This document shows, piece after piece, positions 20,936 through 61,827 of a DNA stretch of 64,000 nt. The translations under genes were made by a program, and so were the position numbers. The stretch's first letter is position 1. Every line of letters begins with the position of its first letter. Under the pieces are notes generated by a model, which saw only the letters and a program-made list of their open reading frames with translations, was not told the origin of the DNA and ran no database searches. Source of the DNA: Pelagomonas calceolata (lineage: Eukaryota); NCBI GenBank assembly GCA_918797485.1, contig CAKKNE010000002.1, positions 2,976,001 through 3,040,000 of the forward strand, in the 5' to 3' direction.

Positions 20936-21226
20936 GTGTGGTTGGCCCCAGGCGTGTGTAATGTGAATGTCTACTGATTTTCAGTTGACCGGAACCGTTC
21001 GTGGCGCTAGTGTGTCTGCGAACACTAGGTGTCGAAACTTCGACGAAAGCGGGCCGGACAAAAAAGACGCTGTGTGGGAATCGAACGCCTCATTGCTGCC
21101 GTTCGAAGCTGAGTTACTCCTCGTACCTAGACCCCTCGCGCGCGCCAGCGTTCGGGTCCCTTGGGCGCCGTAGGGCACCAAACAGAGACGCCGGCCGCCC
21201 CGCGGCGGCGCCGAGCAAAGGGTAGC

Positions 21227-24200
21227 ATGTACGCCCGCCGCCGCACCCGCCAAGCCGTAGTCCCGCCGAGCCCCAGCTCCCTGAGCACGGCCACGCAGCG
21301 ATCCCGGAGGCGCTATCCTAGGCGAGACGACACGGAACGTGTAGATGCATTACTCCAAAGACATAGAGCGCCGCTGCGAGCTCTCTATTGCCACCTCGAG
21401 GCCCAATCTAGAAGAGAAACGGAACACACCGATTCATCCTACTTTGGCGGGTACTTTGGGGACGGCGCATCCCCATTAGCTTGGGATGTGGTACAGAGGG
21501 AACGTCTAAGACCCCGCTCCTCAGTGGTCGCACGAGCGGCAGCTAGATGGAGGAACGCGGGTAGCGACGTGCAGCGATATCTTCGCGGTAGATTCCGGAG
21601 CGACACGGTCGAGTTCGAGGGCTTCGAGGCTTTTTTCGCCGGCTGGGCGCGGCGGTCGGAGGGCGGGCTCGAGGCCTGTTTACGCGCTTTAGCGGAGGAG
21701 AGTTGTGGTGTGATCGAGGCTTCGTTAGCTTCCTCGCTGAAACTCAAGGCCCCGGTTTGGTTACTGTCGCGGGACGAACGACCTTCATCAAGTGTAGATG
21801 AGGTCTGGCGCCTGGCCTTCAAGACGCTCGCCACGAATGGCGAGTGGAGATGTGGAGACGCTTATAGATTTTGTAGGAGTGCGGGGTTGCTCGGCGACGC
21901 GTTGTCGCCCTCGTTTTTGCTCGCGGCCTTCGAGAACGCATTTACCTGTGTGGAAATCAAATTTCGGGCGCCCCACGTTGTCTCCGTAGTTGTATCTGCT
22001 CGATGGCGTGGAGGTTCACGAAGTATAACCTAACTCACTGGTCGATTTCCACACAGGCGTGTTCGGCAGGTAGCGGCACGAACGTCGCCCACTCGTCCTC
22101 CGTGTTGGGCTATGTAGCTAGACAAGAACCATCACTAACGACAGAAAGGGCCTGCGAGCAGTTCCTGAGGAAGGTCGCGAGTTGCTGGTGGCGCGGCGAG
22201 AACGGTTCAGATGATGTTAAGAGGGATGTGTTCCAGTGTTTTGTGGGCGAAAGGGTGCTACCTTTACTAGCTTGTACCAGAAAAGATGTACCCACAACCA
22301 GAGATGATCTCGAGGTGGACGCTTCTACATTGAGAGTGGTCCGAGACCACGATATGGCTTTACGGTGCCTCTTCGCGGCCTACTGCCAAGAGTCCACTGA
22401 GTGTGTACCATTGCTGGGCGTGCTGCACTTCGCGCGGGACTTTCGGTTGCTGACCGCGGGTCGATTCCCCCCTGCGATCGTCGTGGACTGCGCGCGGTCG
22501 GCACGACACGCGCGCCACCCGAAGGCCATGAACACGTCCCTGAGATGGCCGGAGTTCGTCGAGGCGCTGTTGCGACTGGCCCAATCTTCTGACGGGGATG
22601 AGTCACTCGCGGAGAAGACTCGCAAGTTGCTCCAAGTGATGGATCCGACGGGACGAGTGTTCAAGCGCGGGACCGACGTGGAGGTCGAGGCGACGGCGAC
22701 GGAGACTGATGAGAGTACAGTGGAGGAGCCTTTATCACGTACGAATGATCTCTTGGACGCGTCGGACGCTGTTACGCGGCGAGCGCAAGCGACGCGGGCC
22801 GCGGCGGCGCAGTGCCTTGCCGCGGCCGCTGATGCTACGCTACAGTTAGCAGCTGCCTCCGGAGAAGAAGCCCAGGAATTGCGAGCCATCGCGGACGGCA
22901 TGGCCGTGGCCGCGCGAGCTGCGGCTCGTCGAGGCGTGGCGCGGCCGCCGCCTCTGCCGCGCATCGAGGCGCCTCCGCTCTCACCGGAATCGTCGGAACG
23001 GGAGTGGCCGCCGCCGTCGCGGAAATCCGCTGATGAGCTCTGGAGGTCACCTAGGGGCGCGTCGAGCCCGCCGCCGCCACCGAAACGGAAAGTGCCGGCC
23101 ATCGACCTCTCAGAGGCTACAGTAGAAGAGAAGGCGGAGGAGCCGGACCACTGGTGGTGGGTCGACCGGGTGGACAAGCCCGTGGAGGCGGCTAGGCATG
23201 TGGGTGCGACGGCGGTGCAGTCCCACTGTCGCGGCTTTTTGCTGCGGAAGCGGCTGGCTCGTTTAGTGGAGGAGGTGGCTACGTCTCAAAAGTCGGAGAG
23301 CGTCGAAGAGCCAGAAGAAGTACAGGAGGAGGAGGAAGAACCGATCAAGAGCGAGGAGGAAGTAGTACAATCCCAACAAGAAGCGTGCACCGAGGACGAG
23401 CGGGCCGTGATTCATGCCTTTGCGCTGGCGGCGTTGCTAGGTGATGGAAGTCCCAGGCGTATTGCTAGAGCTCGTGTCTTAGTAGAAACGCTCAAGAAGC
23501 TGCCGGACGTGGAGGATGGCGGCGAAGCTGTGGTTGCGGCCCTCGATAAAGCGGGCGACCTGCATGTCGACGAGGACAAGCCGACCTTGGAGAAGCTCGA
23601 AGTTGCTCTCAGGGATGCTCTATCGAGAGTCGCGGTCGCGGAGAAGTTCAACCCGGCCGCGGCTCGGGACGCGCGCGTCACGGCTGAAAGATTAGGTGCT
23701 GCGGTTCGGCGCCATCCTGGGTTTTGGGCTCGTAGAGCGGCGGCGGATGCGGCCTGGGAGGCGCGGGAGCGACCAGCCAATAGAGACGCCTTAGCTGCCA
23801 TGCGGAAACTGGTTCCAAGAGATGTGAGGAACATGAGGGTCGAGGAGGTAGCTGCATTTCTTGGCGGTCGCGTGGGCTTGCACTCCGACGACGCGCGGCT
23901 GAAACCCCTGGCTAAAAGGATCGTGGACCAGAAGATTCTGTGGCTGGTGCACCACGATCCCGCTCGAACGGCGAAAATACACATCGCGGATTTACGTTCT
24001 AGATATATGTACCACGACCTCGATGCCGTTGAGTTACGCGCTGTGTACGCCGCCCTGCCGTCGGAATTCGAACACGACGAGGACAATGCCAAGCAGACTT
24101 GGAGAAGGGACGTCCGGAGGAAGCTCGAGGACAGCGTGAAGAAGTGCGACGCTGGGGATTCTAGGGCGGGCCACCCGGCTTATGATGTCCTGTCCACCGC

Positions 24201-24672: not shown

Positions 24673-27600
24673 CTAACCGGGTAAGTGAAAGCTGCGGGGC
24701 TTTTTCGCCACCACCTTGGGTGCCGCCCGGGGATCGATGCCCACGCGCGATATCTCTCTTTTCCGGGCCTTGGCTGCCGCGGTCGCCTTGGTTGCGGCGG
24801 CTTGCTGCCGCGGCGTCTGCGCGCCCCCGGCCGGCGGACGAGGAGGTGGCGGCGTCGGTGCGCGGCGGTGATACACGCGCCCGAGAGAGCGCTTCTCTCC
24901 CGCGACCTTAGGAATCACGCGCCCGTCGGGTCCGACCGGGTTGAGGCGGCAGCAGTGCTCCAGGCCGCGCCTCTTGATCTCGGCGTTGACCGCCTTCGCG
25001 GCCTCCTCGTCGTCGTGGAACGTCCCCAAATAGCCCGCGCCGCCCTGGAGCCGCGCCTGCCAGTAGCCTCGAGCCGCCACCCAAGAGACCCCATGGAAGC
25101 GTGACGGTCGATGAGGATGTCGCGGCTTTCCTTCTGGCTTTCTCGTTGATTTCGTCACGCCCTCCTTGCGCCAGGGCGGCGAGCGGCCGCCCTTCCTAGG
25201 ATGAATGGGCGGCCGCGCGTCCCACTCCTCCTCCTCCTCGTCCTCCGAGCTCTCGGCTTTGACCCGCGCGGGTCGGACGGGCTTCTCGGCCTTGTGCGCC
25301 CGCAGCTTCCTTCTAAAATCGGCCGGCGTGTCGTACGCGCCGCGGCCGACGCCTCGGGCTTTCATCGCCTCCTTCAGCTGCTTGGTATTCATTCCAGAAA
25401 ACTCGTCGCCCTTCTCCTCGTCGCCGTCGTCCTTGGCGTCGCGCTCAAGCGCCAGCACCCGCGGAACCGCGCCCTTGCCACCCCCGAGGCCCGCTTCCTC
25501 GACGAGCGTTTCGAGCCCATTGGCCGTGCGCGGGTCGATGCCGACGCGCGCGATCTCGTCGGCGCGCTGCTTCGCGTAGGCCGCAGCTTTGGCCGCCGCG
25601 GCCTGCTGGCGGGGCGTCGCCGCGGGCGGCGGGCGGGGCGGCGCGGGTTCCGTTTTGACCCGCGTCCTGGGATCGCGCGGCGCCGGTTCCTCAGAAAGAG
25701 GCGCCTTCGTCAAATCAATAATCAGCTCGAACTTCTCCTCCCGCCCGGGCCCGGTCAGGTTCAGGAGCTCGGCGTCGCCGTCGTCATACCTAACGACGTG
25801 CTTGAACCCGTCGAAGGCCGTCACGACCTGTGTGGAAATCAAAATTTTACGGCGCGCTCGTGCTGAATCGCCGCATCGTCCTCCACGCCATCGACGCGAC
25901 GCCTGCTCGATGGCGTGGCGATGCCGGTGCCTCGCCGCTCGAGCGAGCCAGCACCGCCGCGTCATCGCCGAGAAATGACTTGTACACAGGTCGCGACGCC
26001 CTCGTACCACTTCTCGTCGTCCCGCCACCAGACCTTGATGCGCTGATTTAACAACTCGTTGCCGATGGGCCGCACGGCGTGCCCGTTCCCGTCGAGGTTG
26101 CACCCGACTCGAAAGTCGAGCGGCCCCCGCTCCGCGATCGCTTTCTTCGTGCGCTTTTTTGTGAGAGGGAACCGCCCGAACTTGCCCAAATCTTCAATTT
26201 TTCTAGGACCCTTCTCGCCCCGTTGATGTCTACCGTAGCAGATATCACAAAGGGTATAAGGGCCGTCGGGCCCCGGCTTGGCTCTTCCGGTAGTCCCCAC
26301 CCCGCTCCCGCACCAGTTGCAGCGCCAGGTCTTGGGGTCGATCTTGGGCGGCGGCTGGTACGGCACGTACGTCGGATCGTTCCGCCTCCGCTCCTTCTCG
26401 CGCTCCCAAGGTGTTAATTTCGCCGCGTTCGCTTCTGCGGACCCTAGACACTTCTTCTCATGATTACTTCGAGCGGGTGGATGTCTTGTACTAAAAGCGC
26501 CGCACTTCCGACACGTTAACAACGGCCTCGTATCTGGACCCATTTCTTCTTCAGAGGACTCCTCCTCGCGGAGCTGCTCCCTCCGTTGATGGCGCTTCCG
26601 CCGCAGATGGTCCACATCGACACCATTCCCTTCGCGCTCCATGGACACGAAGGCCATGACCGCCTTTTGAATCGACTCGTATTCCCGACCCCGCGGGTCC
26701 GCGTAGTAATACGAATGGCCGTTCGGCTTGGACTTCAGCCAGTTCTGCTTGCGCCAGGCGCGCCAGCCTTCTAAGTTTGGAGGGCCGAGGCCGTACCTTT
26801 CATGGGCGAGCTTGGCCTTGAACGCCACAAAAGCTAGCCTTTGATCCTTCGCCTCGTCGTCGTCGTCGTCGTCGTCCTCAGCTTCCTCGGCGGCCCGCAC
26901 GGCGCGCTCGGCGACGACGTCGCGCTTGTGGTGCTCGCGCTTCGACGGCGGCGCGCGCGGCCGTACGGGCGCCGCGTCGTCGTCGGACGGGGCCTCGGCC
27001 GCGCGGCGCTTCGGCGCGGGCGCGGGCTTGCGCGCCTTCGGCGGCGGCGCGCGCTTCGCTGCCGTCACGACGAGCTCCCAGCGCCTCTGTTCAAGGTCCT
27101 CGTCCCAGTCTTCGCCGTCCTCATACCGAATTTCGTGCAGCCTCCCGCCGTCGAAGGCGTTGACATGACCAACGAACCAGGCGCGGTCGTGGGGCCACCA
27201 CACTCTGATTTTGTGACCAATGAGTCCAGCGCCGTGCGGCGCATTGGCGGGCCAGGCGTGCTTCTCTTCTTGTGAAGGATGCTTCATCTGGGAGCGCTTC
27301 GGCGGGTCGCGCCTCCTTTTGGGAGGCGGCTTCTCCCTCGATACCGGCGGGCCGCGGCGCTTTGGTGTGGGCATGACCTCGTCGTCACTAAGCTCGTCGT
27401 CGTCGGGGCGCGGCGGCGGCTCATCTATACAAATCTCGGAGATGATGCTCACGTCGTCTCCATCTTCGTTGTCGACGAGGACGAGGCGGACGCGCTCCTG
27501 CGTTGGGTGGGGCGCGCGTTTGCTCTCCGCTCTACCTCTCGATCCCCCTAGGGAGTGTGCGCGCCGCCGAGGAGGCGCGGCCGCGTTCGCGCAACATCTT

Positions 27601-27685
27601 CTCCCAGGTGGGCTGCCCAGGTGCGGTCGCTGTGAAGGGACAGGGCTGCCCGCATTGTGTGGACGCGGGCGCAGACCTCGGCCAT
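24673..27685 (-). CDS. Multidomain chromatin protein: 2 Tudor-like, MBD-like, Zn fingers (one GATA-like), SAP-like, AP2 domain; 2-3 exons
   Basis: IGHKIRVWWP..YEDG and RIKVWWRDDEKWYEG|VVTAFDG..YDDGD (Tudor); YYYADPRGREYESI (MBD-like); CNWC..GPDGPYTLCDIC; SRFHGVSW..WQARL..YLGTFHDDEEAA (AP2). Start inferred through putative intron 27498-27676. Confidence 0.8.
25828..25989. mobile_element. Introner element 2 (GT-AG intron 25997->25828, - strand gene)
   Basis: Ends CTGTGTGGAAATCAA / TGACTTGTACACAG; TSD GTCACGAC/GTCGCGAC (7/8); splicing rebuilds a Tudor domain. Confidence 0.92.
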
Positions 27686-28641: not shown

Positions 28642-29095
28642 TAGTTCTCTGTTTGTGTAATTGTTTTCTGTTGTCTTCACCTACGGTCTTGCCGCTGTGT
28701 CTGCGCATGCTCTCCGCTTGATGGGTGGAAGGTCGCTCGTCTATAGAGCTCGTCTAGGCCGGTCGTCTAGGCCGGTCGCGTGACTCGCGTCGACGGCCCG
28801 GCGGGTTGTGATATCCAGCCTCGCGGCGTCCCCGCCGGCCTGAGCGGCGTCTCGCAGGCGTGGGGCGACGCGGTCGTGCCCTTGGAGGAGTGTTCGTAGG
28901 GCGAGGCTAGTGTGTCACCGCTATGATTATCGAAGTCTCTACGCGCGGCAGGTCGGTGCCCTGAGATTACAAAAACAACGTAAGTACGACACCCACCCTT
29001 GGCGCGCGCGAGGCGCCCGCTGCGCCGGAGCCCAGCGCTCGTGTCTCGCGCGCCGCGGCGCCCGCCCGCTTACACATCACACATGGCTCAGCTGA

Positions 29096-31663
<2,568 letters not shown>

Positions 31664-32786: not shown

Positions 32787-34003
32787 TCAACTTAACCCCC
32801 GAAACCCGTCCGTCGCCTCGACGAGCCGCTCCACGATCTCCGGCTCGAAGGCCGAGTGGCCCGTCGTCGTGATGTGGAGCGTCGAGCCGGGCAGCTTCCG
32901 ATGGAGCTCCCACGCCGACGTCGCCGGGCAGACGACGTCGTAGCGCCCCTGGACGATGACGCACGGGATGTCCTTGATCCTACTAATCTGCGCGTCCTCC
33001 AACAGCCAGCCGTCCCTCTCAAAGAAGCCGCGGTTCGTAAAATAGTGGTTCTCGATGCGCGCAAAAGCGAGTGAAAAGTCGTCGCCGGCCCACTGCGCCT
33101 CGAGCGCCTCCGGCGTCGGCGGAAGCAAACGACTGACGGAGCCTTCCCACACGCTCCAGGCCCGCGCCGCCCTCCGCATCTCTTCCTCACCTAACTCGCC
33201 ACGCAAACGCTTGCCATACGCGGCCACGTAGCCGTCCCGTTCGACCTCTTCAGTGGGAATAATTTCAGCGTACTTCTCCCAGGCCTCCGGGAAGACAAAG
33301 GCGGTGCCCGAGCCCTCGTAGAAGAAGTCGAGTTCCTTCTTTCTCAGTAAAAAGATGCCTCGTAAAACTAACGCTGTCACGCGCTCCGGGTGTTTGACCG
33401 CGTACGAGAGACCGAGCGTCGAACCCCAGCTCCCGCCGAAGACGAGCCAGCGCTCGATGCCCAGTTTCTCCCTTATTTTCTCGTAGTCCGCGACGAGGTC
33501 CCACGTCGTGTTGTCCTCCAACCTGCGTAGAATTCTCATGTCAACCCCCACGCCATCGATGCGACGCCTGCTCGACGGCGTGCACCCGACGCTCGGGTTG
33601 ATTTTCACACGGGACGGAACGAAGCGAAGGGTGTCGACTTCCCGCAGCCGCGCTGATCAACTAAAATGATGCGGTAATGATCTGGATCGAAATAACGCGC
33701 GTGGTTTGGGACTGTGCCGCCGCCCGGCCCGCCATGCACGAAGAGCGCTGGGGTACCTTGCGGGTTGCCGTAGATGGAGTATGCGACTTCATGGATGCCG
33801 ACGGTTATGGAGCCGGTCTCGTGGGCGTCGAGCGCCGGGTAGAGCCGCGACGTGCCATCATCAGACTCCGCTCCTTCGGCGGCTCCACCGCGCAACACGA
33901 GTCGTCGCAGCGGCGCCGGCAGTGGTGCTACACGGCTTGCGCGTGAAACGACGAGCGCTGCGGCTGGCTGCAATGTTGCCAGCAGCACGAGCAGGAGACG
34001 CAT
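32787..34003 (-). CDS. PIP: Proline iminopeptidase, 2 exons (intron 33523-33620)
   Basis: HGGPGGG, DQRGCGKSTPFAS|LEDNTTWDLVAD, FGGSWGST, VQGRYDVVCP, GHSAFE. Confidence 0.95.
33523..33612. mobile_element. Introner element 3, diverged (GT-AG intron 33620->33523)
   Basis: Ends CTGCGTAGAATT / TTGATTTTCACACGG; internal CCACGCCATCGATGCGACGCCTGCTCGA shared with element 2; donor 8 nt outside the element; restores the conserved PIP motif. Confidence 0.88.
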
Positions 34004-52874: not shown

Positions 52875-53059
52875 TTATGCGGCATGCTCTCCAGAGCGGT
52901 TTTGGCTCTCACACCATACAGATGGAATAGAGCGGCGTAAACGTGCTGTCACGTCTTGATGACGACCGCTGACGTTCGTATTCAAGGCTGCGGCTTGCGT
53001 AACGCGCCTCGGACGCTTGCTAGCGTCGTACAGGCACTAGCCCGATCCAGACCTGGCCA

Positions 53060-54690
53060 GGGTTGGGTTTTTTGGCCTTGGGGGGGGGCCGTGGGGTAGT
53101 TTTAGGGGGGGGTGGGGGGGGTTCACCCATCATTACTCGCCGGCTCGAGGGTGGGGGGTGGGGGGGGTCGACGGCGCCGGAGGTGACTACCGTCGCGCGC
53201 GCCGGGCGCGGATTCCGCGAGGAACTCCTAGACGCGACATGAAGTTGTTTGAGCATCGTTCCGTTGGCTGATGGGCCAGAGAGATCAATGGGACACTTAC
53301 TGGGGGGCGAAAAAAATAATTTTTTAAATTCGCGATATTGACGGTCCTACCATGACGGACGCGCCGGTGGAATCCTGTCGGTTCGTGGCGCGGAGGTGTC
53401 CCTGGGGTCGCCTAGGGTCGGTACTAGACACGCGCAAGCGCCTACACCGCATGCGCCGGCGCTTCAAGCATTTTTGGCCGATTTCTCTCAGCAGACCACT
53501 CGGTTTAGCCATCTTTTAGCCATGGTTTGCTTCCAGAGCCCTCCGAGACCACTAGGCTGCTGCATCAATGGCGTATGCGGTACATGCGCTTACCCACTAC
53601 CAGACCTACCCCGAGAGACCTCCAGGAGCCGATCTGCCCCCGAAAAAAGTGTGCAATTTGGACCCGATGGCACCTCGTTCCCGGCAAAAACGCCAATTAC
53701 CTGAGGGCCCCCAGTAGTCGCCGTAGCGGTCTCGTTGGACCCCATACTACCCCAACGATAGTCAATTACGAGTATATGCCATCTACATTATACGAAGGGT
53801 ACTTTTTGCTGCCCACACTCGGGACGTGAACATCTTTATCTGGAGCTCGCTTAAGTCGGTCGATCATGAAACAAATGATCGCGTCATGGTCTATGGTAAT
53901 GGTACACGGGCTGATGGTGCTAGGTCCAGTCAGATGCACGTATTTGGCGAGATACCGTGGTCCCGAGACGGCCGAGCCGCCAAGAGTGTACGGAACCGTT
54001 AATCAAATGTAGTACACGTTTAGGCCGGTTATCTGGCCCGTCCCATAACCGAAGCGCCTGAAACGCGAATTTATTTTATAACTCACCGGTCTGGGGCCTT
54101 TCTGTGGCTCCGTCAACGCACCGTCGTCCGCGGAGAACTGGCAAGTCGGTCGATTGTGAATAGAACAACGGCGTTATGGTCCATCTGGGTGGTGGCGTCG
54201 CTGATACTCGCGGGTTCAGGTTCTGAGCGCGGTTTCAACATAAACGCGGGGCGCGAATTCGTCGTTTCGCGCGGCTCCAACGGGTCATCCAAAATACCTC
54301 AGTAGTCGCTGATTCGGGCTAGATGGAGTCTACCACTACCAAACGGAAGGAAACGAACATAAACGCGAGAGTTGTCTAGTAGAATTCTTTTCCCGCCCTC
54401 CGAGCGCGGGCCGTCGGCTCCGGTTCCGTCGAATGTGTATGAAAACTGGGCTGGAGTTGATATGATGTACCATTTGGATAGTTGATGGCGGCGTCAAACG
54501 CTGGTGTATTTTGGCGAGCCGCAAGACCTGGTGAGCTAGCGTATGGACATACTAGGATCCGTATTTTGAGAGGGTGTTGGGGGGGGTCGTCTCATTTCTC
54601 CGACCGGTCCCAGGGAGGGGGGTAGGGGGGGTGGCACGAGGTCTCTAAAAGGGGGGGACGGCCCCCCTGGCTGGCAAAAAAACCCAACCC
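53060..54690. mobile_element. Non-autonomous TIR element (~1.63 kb), no transposase ORF
   Basis: Ungapped 46-bp imperfect inverted repeats (33/46, first 14 bp identical: GGGTTGGGTTTTTT); lower-GC interior; no TSD found. Confidence 0.7.
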
Positions 54691-54795
54691 AGCGCAGACT
54701 TTTAACGAGCTGCCAGCCCATTGATACATTCTATAGCCCGAGAAAAATCAAACCAAAAGAAGTCTCGTTGCATGCGAAACTTGGCACAAGCTAAG

Positions 54796-55894: not shown

Positions 55895-57140
55895 TTACGC
55901 AGCCGATGACCGCGCGATGAGCACGATCGCCGCGCCGTACAGACACAACATTGCCCCAATGTAAGCGAGGGCCCGCGGCGACGCGTGCTCGGCCTCGCCC
56001 CAGTAAAACAGCCCCCATAATGCCGCGACCGTCGGCGAACAACGAGCGACGGACACGGCAACCGTCACGCCGATATCTTCGCCCGCGATGAACACCAGCA
56101 CGGCCCCGCAGAACCAGGCCGCGCCCGCGACGAACCCGTAGCCCCAGGCGGCGCTGCAGATACCGACGCTCGGCGGCTGTTTCGAGCCCGACCGTCGGAG
56201 GTAGGCGGCTCGGACGGGCAGGAGGACGAGGCAGAATAGCAAATGCGACAGGCCCAGGACGACCATGAAGGCCGGGACCTGAGTGGAAATCAAATTCACG
56301 GCGCCCCGCGACGTTGTCCTGTAATTGCGTCAACCTAATTCACTGGTTGATTTCCACACAGGCCGGGACCGTCGCTCCCGCGTCCACGGCCAGCGCCTCG
56401 CCCGCGGGCCAGAAGCTCAGCAGCACGCCCGCCGCCACAGCGCGGCGGACGCCTCTCCGTGCGCCCTGCGGCTTGTCGTCCCACTGATTCTTCGTCTTCG
56501 TCGGCGAGAGCGCGTCGACCAGGCGCTCGATCGGGACGCACGCGTCGTCGCTATGGTCGCTGTCGAAGACGTAGTCGAGCTCGTCATCATCTCCTTCCGG
56601 GAGGAACTCGACCTTGCCCAGCGACCGGCCGCGCTTCAACGCTGAGGCTCCGAGCAGGCCGTCCTCCTCCGGCGGCGCCCCCCGGGGCTCGTTGTCCGCG
56701 AGCCGGAGCTGCGCCAGGGCGTCGAGGGCCACGGCTCCGAGCACGCACAGCAGCGCCCCGAGCAGCGGCCCCACGTTTAGGGCGTCCCGGTCCAGCAGGT
56801 AGAGCAGGAACGTCCCCAAGGTCATTTCGATACCCATCACCACAGGATAGCTCAACGTCACGCCGACCATCTCGATGGAGGACAGGAAGCACATGCTGCC
56901 CCCGCACCCGCACAAGCCGCCAAAGATGCCGTAGAACGCCGCGCCGCGGTGCCCGCCGATCGCTCGTACCTCCGGTGCCGCCGCGACGGCGAGCACCATT
57001 GCGCTCGCGCCGACGCCGACGCTATAAGCTTTAAAGAATAAGGACCACTGCACGGCGCTGGCCTTGGCTAGGGTCCCGATGCTGCCCCACAGGCAGAGTG
57101 CCGTGAGGCAGAGGAGCCAGCCTGCTATTGATGAGTTCAT
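55895..57140 (-). CDS. DMT-superfamily membrane transporter (TMEM144/sugar-transport-like), 2 exons (intron 56279-56369)
   Basis: LWGS, G.TLSYP, P.VAALWGLFYWGE; join AGAT|VPAFM. Confidence 0.75.
56279..56361. mobile_element. Introner element 5 (GT-AG intron 56369->56279)
   Basis: TIR CTGAGTGGAAATCAA / TTGATTTCCACACAG; perfect 8-bp TSD GCCGGGAC (56271-56278, 56362-56369). Confidence 0.95.
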
Positions 57141-58844: not shown

Positions 58845-59642
58845 ATGAGAAGAGCACTCGTCCTCGCCACAACAACCGCGCGGGCCGTGCGCTTCGGCCG
58901 CGTGCTGGCGCCCGTGGGTTTGTTGGGAGGCGCGAGCCTGCTGTCCAGTGCGCGCGCACCCGTGCACGAATCAAATGTCGCTCGCCCACAGCTGACGCGA
59001 CGCTCTCATCGTTGATTTGCACACAGGCGAGCGCGGAAAAAGATCGACTACGAATCATTGACGGGCCTGCCCGAGAGCTGGGCCGCCGAAGCCGCCAAAC
59101 ACGCATTAGCTGGCAACACACCCACAAGGTCCGACGGCGGGTACGAGATAGCGACCTTCGCCGGCGGCTGCTTCTGGGGCGTCGAGCTGCGCTTCCAGCG
59201 CGTGCCCGGCGTCATCGCGACGGCGAGCGGCTACGTCCAAGGGCATAAATCTGAGCCGACCTACAAGGAGGTCTCGGCGCGGTCCACGGGCCACACGGAA
59301 GCGGTCCAGCTCATTTTCGATCCGGGCGTTGTGAGTTATGCGGACTTGCTGGAGATCTACTGGGACCGACTGGGCGACGACGCCACGCGCGCCAACGCCG
59401 TTGGCAACGACCGCGGGCCGCAGTACCGCTCCGGCGTCTACGCGCTTTCCGAGAGACAGCTCGCCGCCGCGGAGGCGTCGCTATCAAAGCGCCAGGAGCG
59501 CTTCGCGAAGCCGATCGCGACGGAGGTCGAAATGCAAAGAGGCGTCTTCTGGCCCGCGGAGGAGTACCACCAGCAGTACCTCGAGAAGGGCGGCCAGTCC
59601 GCCAGGAAAAAGGAGACGGAGCCGATCCGGTGTTATGGGTAA
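58845..59642 (+). CDS. msrA: Peptide methionine sulfoxide reductase A, 2 exons (intron 58952-59026)
   Basis: FAGGCFWGVE, TGHTEAV, GNDRGPQYRS, AEEYHQQYLEKGG, IRCYG; targeting-peptide exon joins in frame. Confidence 0.93.
58960..59026. mobile_element. Introner element 6 (GC-AG intron 58952-59026)
   Basis: Ends CCGTGCACGAATCAA / TTGATTTGCACACAG; TSD GCGCGCAC/GCGAGCGC (6/8). Confidence 0.85.
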
Positions 59643-60781: not shown

Positions 60782-61827
60782 CTACCACTGGTCCTGGCGA
60801 TCCGGCCGGCGGACGCCAGCCTCATCGCGGATCTTCTCGCGGAAGACGAAGCCCGGCCGCCCGCCGTCGTCCGCGTGCTCGTAGGGGTGCTCCTGGCGGA
60901 ACTCGACCGCGCGCACCGTGAGGTCGAGGCCGTTCGCCTCGATCGCCGCGACGGACCGCGGTGGCAAGAGCCATGCGCGCGCGATCGTCACCGTGTCCAA
61001 GTAGGGCGTGAGTACCTGTGTAAGCGACCACGTCAAGCATATAAAGTGCGATGGTGCGCTGGTGCGAGCCCAGATCCGGTTCCCGGTGCCGTCGGAGAAG
61101 ACGTCGACGCGGATGCGGTGAGCTTCGAGGAGGCCTTCCGCGGGGAACATGTGCTCCGGGCCATAGAGCACGACCCGAAACGCCATGCCGAACCAGAGCG
61201 ACAACCAGTGGACCTCCTCCCACTTCGACCTCTCCTTCAGCTTCGCCAGGAGCGCGATGACGGCCAGCAGTAGCGACAGCATGTGCGCGTGGTGCCAGCC
61301 CACCGGTATAGTAATGTTTTCGAAGTAAGAGTCGTCCCACTCGCCGACGCCCTCGTTTGCCAGTTTATAACCAATACAACCGAACAAGTAGTGCGCCGTC
61401 CCGTAGAGCTTACCGAGGTCGTCGTTACCAACACCGATCGGTCTCTCTTCGAAGGGGCCTACGTGCGTCATCTCCAACATGCCCTCAAAGGCCTCGCCTA
61501 GCAGTAGTAACGGGCTCAGCGTCCGCTTGGCCGTGTTGTCCATGAACCTGTGTCGAGACCATGCCATCGACGCGACGACGACTCGTCGACCCCACGCCAT
61601 CGACCCGACGGTACACCGACCGCAACGCAGTCGTCGACGTGACGCGGAGTACTCGAACTCTTTGATTTTCACACGGTCGCGTGCTGCACTGCCATTTTCA
61701 CGCCACCGCCCTCCGCGTATTTTTGCACGAAGCGCGTGGCACCCGCGCAGAACTCCTCCACGTTCTTATCAAATTTTAATTTGTGCTCGGCCGTGGCGCG
61801 GCTATACATGTCCCTGTCTCTTATCAT
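60782..61827 (-). CDS. Hypothetical protein, at least 2 exons (intron 61548-61684); start uncertain
   Basis: In-frame join KMAVQ|FMDNTAK after removal of the introner. Confidence 0.55.
61548..61676. mobile_element. Introner element 7 (GC-AG intron 61684->61548)
   Basis: Ends CTGTGTCGAGACCA / TTGATTTTCACACGG; two copies of the GCCATCGAC core; donor 8 nt outside the element. Confidence 0.85.

What the first reader, a model, noticed from the sequence alone, without database searches (positions are those of the whole stretch)
56271..56369. Strand-symmetric intron: palindromic GYnnnnRC target plus TIR gives splice sites on both strands
Seen: the best-preserved target duplications are GCCGGGAC (8/8), GTCRCGAC (7/8), GCGCGCAC/GCGAGCGC and GCATTTAC. 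All fit GY-N4-RC, which reads as a GT/GC donor on both strands, and the TIR supplies CAG on both strands. Elements 1 and 5 are near-siblings (GGAAATCAAATT..GGCGCCCC and CCTAAYTCACTGGTYGATTTCCACACAG) and lie the same way on the + strand, yet they sit in genes of opposite strand. Inference: selection only requires a donor on the transcribed strand, so the symmetry suggests a transposase target preference that makes insertions spliceable in any orientation.
Basis: partly seen in the sequence, partly recalled or inferred. Interest (0 to 1): 0.75.

Follow-up and report, generated by a model that had tools for sequence, protein, structure and literature searches.

The report
Either-way-round transposon-made algal intron
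A short mobile element in a marine alga sits in genes either way round and is cut out as an intron (seen in RNA for one neighbouring copy, inferred for this one), which is a known way to gain introns; its landing sites are only weakly palindromic, and some copies share an old splice donor across unrelated genes, likely carried along with them.

Summary
The finding is an 83-bp inverted-repeat element with a perfect 8-bp target duplication (TSD) in a minus-strand transporter gene of a pelagophyte alga: an introner of the Aureococcus type. The TSD gives the GY donor, the terminal repeat gives CAG. Either-orientation use is real (43:34 among 77 strand-called sites in related marine contigs) and already reported. 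The strict GY-N4-RC target is not supported: on the transcribed strand 76 of 77 donors are GY but only 27 of 77 sites have RC at positions 7-8. That is still twice the codon-phase-matched expectation (25 of 72 against 11.7, p about 1e-4), so a weak hAT/P-like palindromic preference likely doubles the share of spliceable insertions. The unused end decays (13 of 77 altered against 0 of 77). Side lead: 11 copies in three groups share one donor 8-mer across unrelated genes with a poor or absent TSD, one inside the conserved myosin motif at a non-GY site, suggesting donor capture or conversion. Earlier scan notes describe other introners in other genomes, not this element.

The parts
56279..56361 (.). 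83-bp non-coding TIR element (MITE-type introner); the finding
56279..56293 (.). left TIR (A end); supplies the CAG acceptor on the - strand transcript, with a TTGAT branch-like motif (A at -12, predicted)
56347..56361 (.). right TIR (B end); its + strand CAG is unused here
56334..56339 (+). CCTAAT branch-like motif, available only when the element is read on + (A at -24); not on the transcribed strand of this copy
56362..56369 (-). TSD copy that opens the intron (GT donor on the - strand)
56271..56278 (-). TSD copy kept in exon 2 (codes Val-Pro-Ala)
56279..56369 (-). 91-nt phase-0 GT-AG intron (inferred from ORF, RNA strand and continuous homologs; junction reads not displayed)
56370..57140 (-). 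host exon 1, EamA/ureide-permease-like membrane transporter
55895..56278 (-). host exon 2
21946..22056 (+). E1, sibling element in a + strand WW/IQ-domain gene; GC donor, TSD 5 of 8
25828..25989 (-). E2, element in a - strand gene; TSD 7 of 8; 170-nt intron seen spliced in RNA
33523..33612 (-). E3, element in proline iminopeptidase gene; TSD 3 of 8; unused end reads CCG
58960..59026 (+). E5, element in MsrA gene; GC donor, TSD 6 of 8
61548..61676 (-). E6, element in a - strand ORF; GC donor, TSD 3 of 8; unused end reads CCG

Best explanation
This is a non-coding inverted-repeat element, likely moved by an unidentified cut-and-paste transposase, that duplicates 8 bp of exon on insertion and is inferred to be spliced out from a GT/GC at the start of the upstream duplicate to the CAG at the far end of the element. 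Because both element ends finish in CAG when read outward, orientation does not matter (shown). A GY at TSD positions 1-2 on the transcribed strand is required and is enforced by selection (shown as 76 of 77; selection inferred). A weak two-fold symmetric target preference (GT..AC-like, as in hobo and P) likely raises the share of such sites from about 16% to about 35% (RC excess shown; cause inferred). After fixation only the used acceptor is maintained (shown).
For: TSD length is 8: mean flank identity 0.78 at 8 against 0.19-0.34 at 2-7 and 9-12, 30 of 100 perfect; perfect TSDs that end in G or start with C (L048, L117) rule out a longer TIR with a shorter TSD. Codon-model strand calls ignore the TSD letters and match all six window hosts. 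Donor GY 76 of 77; orientation 43:34; used acceptor CAG 77 of 77, unused end intact 64 of 77, p=1.4e-4. RC 27 of 77 (95% interval 25-47%); phase-matched 25 of 72 vs 11.7; AC 12 vs 3.6; C8 35 vs 20.2. 70 of 71 intact-TSD sites have GY or RC. E2 junction seen in RNA, 77/55/57/106 reads in four runs of one sample. Homologs run unbroken across the E4 junction, one from a 41-kb contig; two others read into the same insertion. hobo target GTNCGNAC and P target GTCCGGAC (PMC3276498 Table 4, passages).
Against: No autonomous element or transposase was found, so the superfamily is untested. Junction reads for E4, E1, E3, E5, E6 were not among the rows shown. 29 of 100 sites have TSD identity of 5 of 8 or less, against 3-8 expected from Poisson decay; about 4 are explained by small indels, so plain TSD insertion does not explain every site. 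No unselected intergenic set was available.
Confidence: 0.88

Rival explanations
1. Strict palindromic target: the transposase targets GY-N4-RC, so nearly any insertion is spliceable on either strand.
For: Finding itself, E2 and E5 fit; pooled logo is symmetric; RC is enriched twofold.
Against: 50 of 77 strand-called sites lack RC; among 30 perfect TSDs 13 have both halves, 10 GY only, 7 RC only, 0 neither; single-half sites always have their half on the host's strand.
Confidence: 0.03
2. No target preference: the RC excess comes from splicing selection (purine at +7 pairing with U1, or C8/R7 pairing with the exon G/Y to lengthen the TIR stem that joins the splice sites).
For: R7 could wobble-pair with U1 (recalled U1 5' sequence, no call); the E4 pre-mRNA folds with the TSD halves extending the TIR stem.
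Against: C at +8 would mismatch U1 (recalled) yet is enriched (35 vs 20.2); the excess mirrors the donor side (AC more than GC); it is equal in donor and exon copies and present in perfect TSDs (11 of 28), so it predates decay.
Confidence: 0.2
3. Part of the family spreads as a whole intron: an old TSD copy was captured as a permanent donor and donor+element is copied to new exon sites without a new TSD (RNA route, or a transposon end that carries its 8-nt overhang).
For: GTCGAGAG at 5 unrelated genes plus a 7/8 variant, GTCTCGGG-type at 3, GTTCAGCA-type at 2; five identical donors never arose in 20,000 simulations of 100 sites; element-only tree joins the GTCTCGGG group (99) and the GTTCAGCA group (94); myosin exons are contiguous in Pfam (147|148) at a target that starts AA; no outer TSD; upstream exons differ, which argues against assembly chimeras.
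Against: The GTCGAGAG group is not one clade on a poorly resolved tree (5 changes; 56 of 500 shuffles as low); 10 of 11 targets still start with G and share 1-5 leading bases with the donor; no RNA or empty-allele check at these loci; metagenome assemblies only.
Confidence: 0.4
4. The shared donors come from ectopic gene conversion or one-sided gap repair between existing copies, which overwrites the donor-side TSD and can rescue insertions at non-GY sites.
For: GTCGAGAG sits on different element backgrounds; leading microhomology with the target; L085/L097 and L075/L107 hold near-identical element ends at the same site of synonymously diverged genes.
Against: 4 of 11 targets are not GY (three GA, one AA), so the first insertion would have been unspliceable until rescued.
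Confidence: 0.4

Closest known systems
Aureococcus anophagefferens introner elements (Huff, Zilberman and Roy 2016; not readable here, known from descriptions in 10.1101/2020.10.14.339549 and PMC12403724, passages)
   Same: MITE-like, one splice site carried, the other co-opted from the TSD, introns made in either orientation; related lineage (E3 host exon 73% identical to a cluster holding Aureococcus proline iminopeptidase).
   Different: Host is not A. anophagefferens; sequence identity of the element families not compared; donor-sharing copies without TSD are not mentioned in the passages read.
Pelagomonas calceolata putative IEs (PMC9481584, supplement file 2 Note 3, passages)
   Same: 956 repeat-derived introns with GT and GC donors, AG acceptor and conserved TIR; possibly this very family (Pelagomonas is my inference for the host).
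Polarella glacialis ILE classes 6, 8, 10 (10.1101/2020.10.14.339549, parts 1-2 of 4 read)
   Same: 8-nt TSD (GHN6), donor from TSD, introns in either orientation.
   Different: Dinoflagellate; GA donors tolerated and one orientation favoured, while here intact-TSD donors are GY in 59 of 59 and orientation is not significantly biased.
hobo (hAT) and P-element target motifs (PMC3276498 passages; PMC2577343 abstract)
   Same: 8-bp TSD with a degenerate palindromic GT..AC motif.
   Different: No transposase found here; TIR starts CTG; no motif beyond the TSD seen in 58 sites.
TSD-free introners: ascomycete ILEs, sister stwintrons, and the Aureococcus sp. family that carries both splice sites (PMC9860276 passages and section 8; PMC12403724 passages)
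   Same: Whole intron appears at new sites, as in the donor-sharing groups.
   Different: Here the carried donor is exactly one TSD length and comes from a TSD-making family; the Aureococcus sp. family still makes an 8-bp TSD and adds 12 nt to the mRNA.

Membership tests
MITE-type introner (Aureococcus type) | multi-copy, sequence-similar introns in unrelated genes | tested here: met
   6 in window, 100 distinct sites among 110 usable of 121 loci
MITE-type introner (Aureococcus type) | terminal inverted repeats | tested here: met
   15 bp, 14 of 15 complementary
MITE-type introner (Aureococcus type) | fixed-length TSD | tested here: met
   8 bp; 71 of 100 at 6 of 8 or better
MITE-type introner (Aureococcus type) | one splice site carried, one co-opted, exact removal from mRNA | tested here: met
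   RNA junction for E2; homolog continuity for E4, E3; direct junction reads for E4 not displayed
MITE-type introner (Aureococcus type) | either orientation | tested here: met
   43:34 of 77; both orientations within one starred clade
MITE-type introner (Aureococcus type) | presence/absence at orthologous sites | tested here: met
   P0004 continuous on a 41-kb contig; P0002/P0003 carry the insertion; P0001 may be a transcript
MITE-type introner (Aureococcus type) | insertion in nucleosome linkers | not testable with these tools
   no nucleosome or methylation data
hAT or P superfamily | 8-bp TSD with degenerate palindromic target | tested here: met
   (weak form)
hAT or P superfamily | autonomous partner with matching TIRs and a hAT or P transposase | not tested
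   no whole genome; elements found were at most 226 bp; record search not possible
   27 of 77
   unused end altered in 13 of 77, used end in 0 of 77
TSD-free whole-intron introner (donor-sharing groups) | same donor travels with the element, exons unchanged, no TSD | tested here: inconclusive
   pattern seen at 11 sites; copying not separated from conversion

The most novel reading that the evidence does not exclude
Within one family, a TSD-co-opting introner turns into a self-contained mobile intron: an old 8-bp target duplicate is captured as a permanent donor, and donor+element then lands at new exon sites, even non-GY ones, with no new duplication and no change to the mRNA. This would link the TSD/TIR class of introners to the TSD-free class and free the element from its target requirement.
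Probability: 0.4. Interest if true: 0.7.

Novelty: already known. Interest (0 to 1): 0.4.

Why it matters
The element at the finding is an ordinary member of a known class. Two things add value. First, the transcript-oriented count separates selection from target preference and gives a number (about 35% against 16%) for how far a transposase's symmetric bias may pre-adapt an element to make introns; it also shows that pooled TSD logos mislead for either-orientation introners. Second, the donor-sharing copies give specific, testable loci for the open question of how TSD-free introners arise and whether introns move as whole units.

Tried and rejected
Longer TIR (RCCTG..CAGGY or CCTG..CAGG) with a 4- or 6-bp TSD: fits the finding alone, rejected by the TSD-length scan and by perfect TSDs ending in G or starting with C. 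Codon-phase artefact for RC (positions 1-2 and 7-8 share a phase): rejected with two phase- and GT/GC-matched backgrounds. Duplicate loci inflating counts: 110 loci collapsed to 100 sites; no further duplicates among the 77; L085/L097 remain as two rows in the 100 and only L085 is in the 77. E1 in a minus-strand gene with a GA donor: rejected. Viral contig scan: 0 matches. No whole genome, so no genome-wide or intergenic logo; contig-level search by handles not available. First read lay mixed DNA contigs with RNA, and contig joints crowded out the RNA junction rows. Huff 2016 not held under three ids. Nearest-neighbour and tree tests did not show one origin for the GTCGAGAG group. Paper searches for a captured or carried donor in TSD-making introners listed 1, 1, 3 and 3 papers; I saw only the listings for PMC5647799, PMC10228655, PMC4815162, PMC4540971, PMC7789003, so absence from print is not established.

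Full report
What is there. At 56279-56361 lies an 83-bp element with 15-bp inverted ends (CTG..CAG) between two copies of GCCGGGAC. A profile of the ends finds six such elements in the window. Removing element plus one TSD copy opens long ORFs on one strand in each case: E1 +, E2 -, E3 -, E4 (the finding) -, E5 +, E6 -. Stranded RNA agrees for E1, E2, E3 and E4, E5; E6 had little coverage. E2 is seen spliced as a 170-nt CT..AC skip, that is element plus 8. For E4 the junction rows were not displayed; homologs P0001 (96%, possibly a transcript) and P0004-P0006 (82%, one from a 41-kb contig) run unbroken across the junction, while P0002 and P0003 read into the same insertion. The host is a pelagophyte: the E3 exon is 73% identical to a cluster that holds Aureococcus anophagefferens proteins; Pelagomonas is my inference.

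E1 and E4 do lie the same way in genes of opposite strand. But GCATTTAC matches its partner at 5 of 8, and E3 and E6 (3 of 8 each) do not fit GY-N4-RC.

Test on many sites. I dropped 11 (9 without a findable second end, 2 with under 8 nt of flank) and collapsed 110 to 100 distinct sites. The TSD is 8 bp (identity 0.78 against 0.19-0.34 at other lengths). Host strand was called with a codon model trained on 17 element-free window ORFs that never sees the TSD letters; it gets all six window hosts right, and 77 of 100 sites were called with margin; 23 were left out.

Result. Pooled by element orientation, the logo looks palindromic (G1 52 of 71, C8 51 of 71), but the 71 intact sites split into 27 GY only, 22 RC only, 21 both, 1 neither. 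On the transcribed strand the donor copy is GY in 76 of 77 and RC at 7-8 is in 27 of 77. Matched for codon phase and GT/GC, 25 of 72 is seen against 11.7 expected (p=8e-5); for TSD of 6 of 8 or better, 19 of 59 against 9.7 (p=0.002); AC 12 against 3.6, GC 13 against 8.1. Background GY in these exons is 16%. If the preference is symmetric and the halves independent (assumed), about a third of exonic insertions would be spliceable instead of a sixth, and the rest are purged (inferred). Orientation is 43:34 (p=0.36). The used acceptor is CAG in 77 of 77, the unused end is intact in 64 of 77 (p=1.4e-4). Phases are 34:16:27. Both TIRs hold a TTGAT branch-like motif; CCTAAC exists in one orientation only; branch use is untested.

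Mechanism. Shown: TIRs, 8-bp TSD, donor in the TSD, acceptor in the TIR, both orientations, RC excess, decay of the unused end. Inferred: cut-and-paste by an unseen transposase, selection for GY, target preference as the cause of the RC excess. A splicing-based cause (U1 pairing at +7, recalled; a longer RNA stem) is not excluded.

Known context. Roy et al. [quoted passage not shown] PMC12403724 (passages) and PMC11282704 (passages) summarise the co-option model of Huff 2016, which I could not read. PMC9481584 (passages and supplement file 2 passages) reports 956 putative IEs with GT/GC donors and TIRs in P. calceolata; its logo figure and file 5 were not visible and may bear on novelty. 10.1101/2024.10.30.620910 (passages) gives 14-17% GC-AG introns in these algae. 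Palindromic targets are general for TIR elements (PMC2577343 abstract), with GTNCGNAC for hobo and GTCCGGAC for P (PMC3276498 passages). PMC9860276 (passages, section 8) and PMC12130899 (passages) cover introner diversity.

Side lead. 29 of 100 sites have TSD identity of 5 of 8 or less; Poisson decay predicts 3-8 and small indels explain about 4. Eight of them, with L033 (6 of 8) and L080 and L100 (dropped from the 100 for short flanks), form three groups that share the donor 8-mer across unrelated genes while the exon copies differ: GTCGAGAG at L012, L080, L100, L115, L118 and a 7/8 variant at L076; GTCTCGGG-type at L003, L033, L106; GTTCAGCA-type at L053, L043. Pfam names the hosts of L115 (GAPDH), L106 (myosin), L043 (IF-2) and L100 (sulfate permease); 4 of the 8 group loci sent gave no hit or were not named (L012, L033, L053 none; L085 is a separate case). 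In L106 the exons meet at myosin profile positions 147|148 and the target starts AA, so the donor cannot have come from it. Five identical donors did not occur in 20,000 simulated sets of 100 sites, and there is no outer TSD. On an element-only tree the GTCTCGGG group (99) and GTTCAGCA group (94) are clades, the GTCGAGAG group is not (5 changes, one origin not ruled out; 73 of 99 forks open). Ten of 11 targets start with G and share 1-5 leading bases with the donor. Whole-intron copying and ectopic conversion both remain open; none of these loci was checked with RNA or long reads.

Verdict. A known kind of introner; the strict strand-symmetric reading fails, a weak symmetric preference holds, and donor carriage is a lead worth a genome-wide test.

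Noticed in passing
L012, L076, L080, L100, L115, L118; L003, L033, L106; L043, L053: Copies share one donor 8-mer across unrelated genes with poor or no TSD (donor capture or conversion).
   Followed up: partly
L085, L097 (ankyrin repeat) and L075, L107: Near-identical element ends at the same site of synonymously diverged genes; in L085/L097 the target is not GY on the sense strand and the two donors differ, and the L097 donor resembles the reverse complement of the right flank (possible hairpin template switch).
   Followed up: partly
window 53053-54697: About 1.6-kb stretch with 40-nt inverted arms (78%), no ORF over 120 aa, very high contig depth at 54000-54660 in DNA runs: likely a separate high-copy element.
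   Followed up: partly
window 4556, 7821, 11255, 17438, 20304, 32698, 44047, 58505, 60679, 62814: Ten copies of a CTAGCG-N-TAAGACACTAG motif, on either strand, mostly between genes; role unknown.
   Followed up: no
window 21070-21084: Single TIR-like end with no partner found, upstream of the E1 host ORF.
   Followed up: no
window 27497-27676 (-) and 28980-29252 (+): Two RNA-supported ordinary GT-AG introns without the family's TIR; the second lies in the 5' leader of a CDC48-like gene.
   Followed up: partly
element interiors, window E2/E3/E6 and L001-L121: Lengths vary from about 60 to about 205 bp through gain and loss of a self-complementary CACGCCATCGACGCGACG-type unit.
   Followed up: no
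window 21946-22056, 25828-25989, 56279-56361: Poly(A) RNA reads from other copies pile up on the element ends in both directions, pointing to intron retention or UTR copies elsewhere.
   Followed up: no
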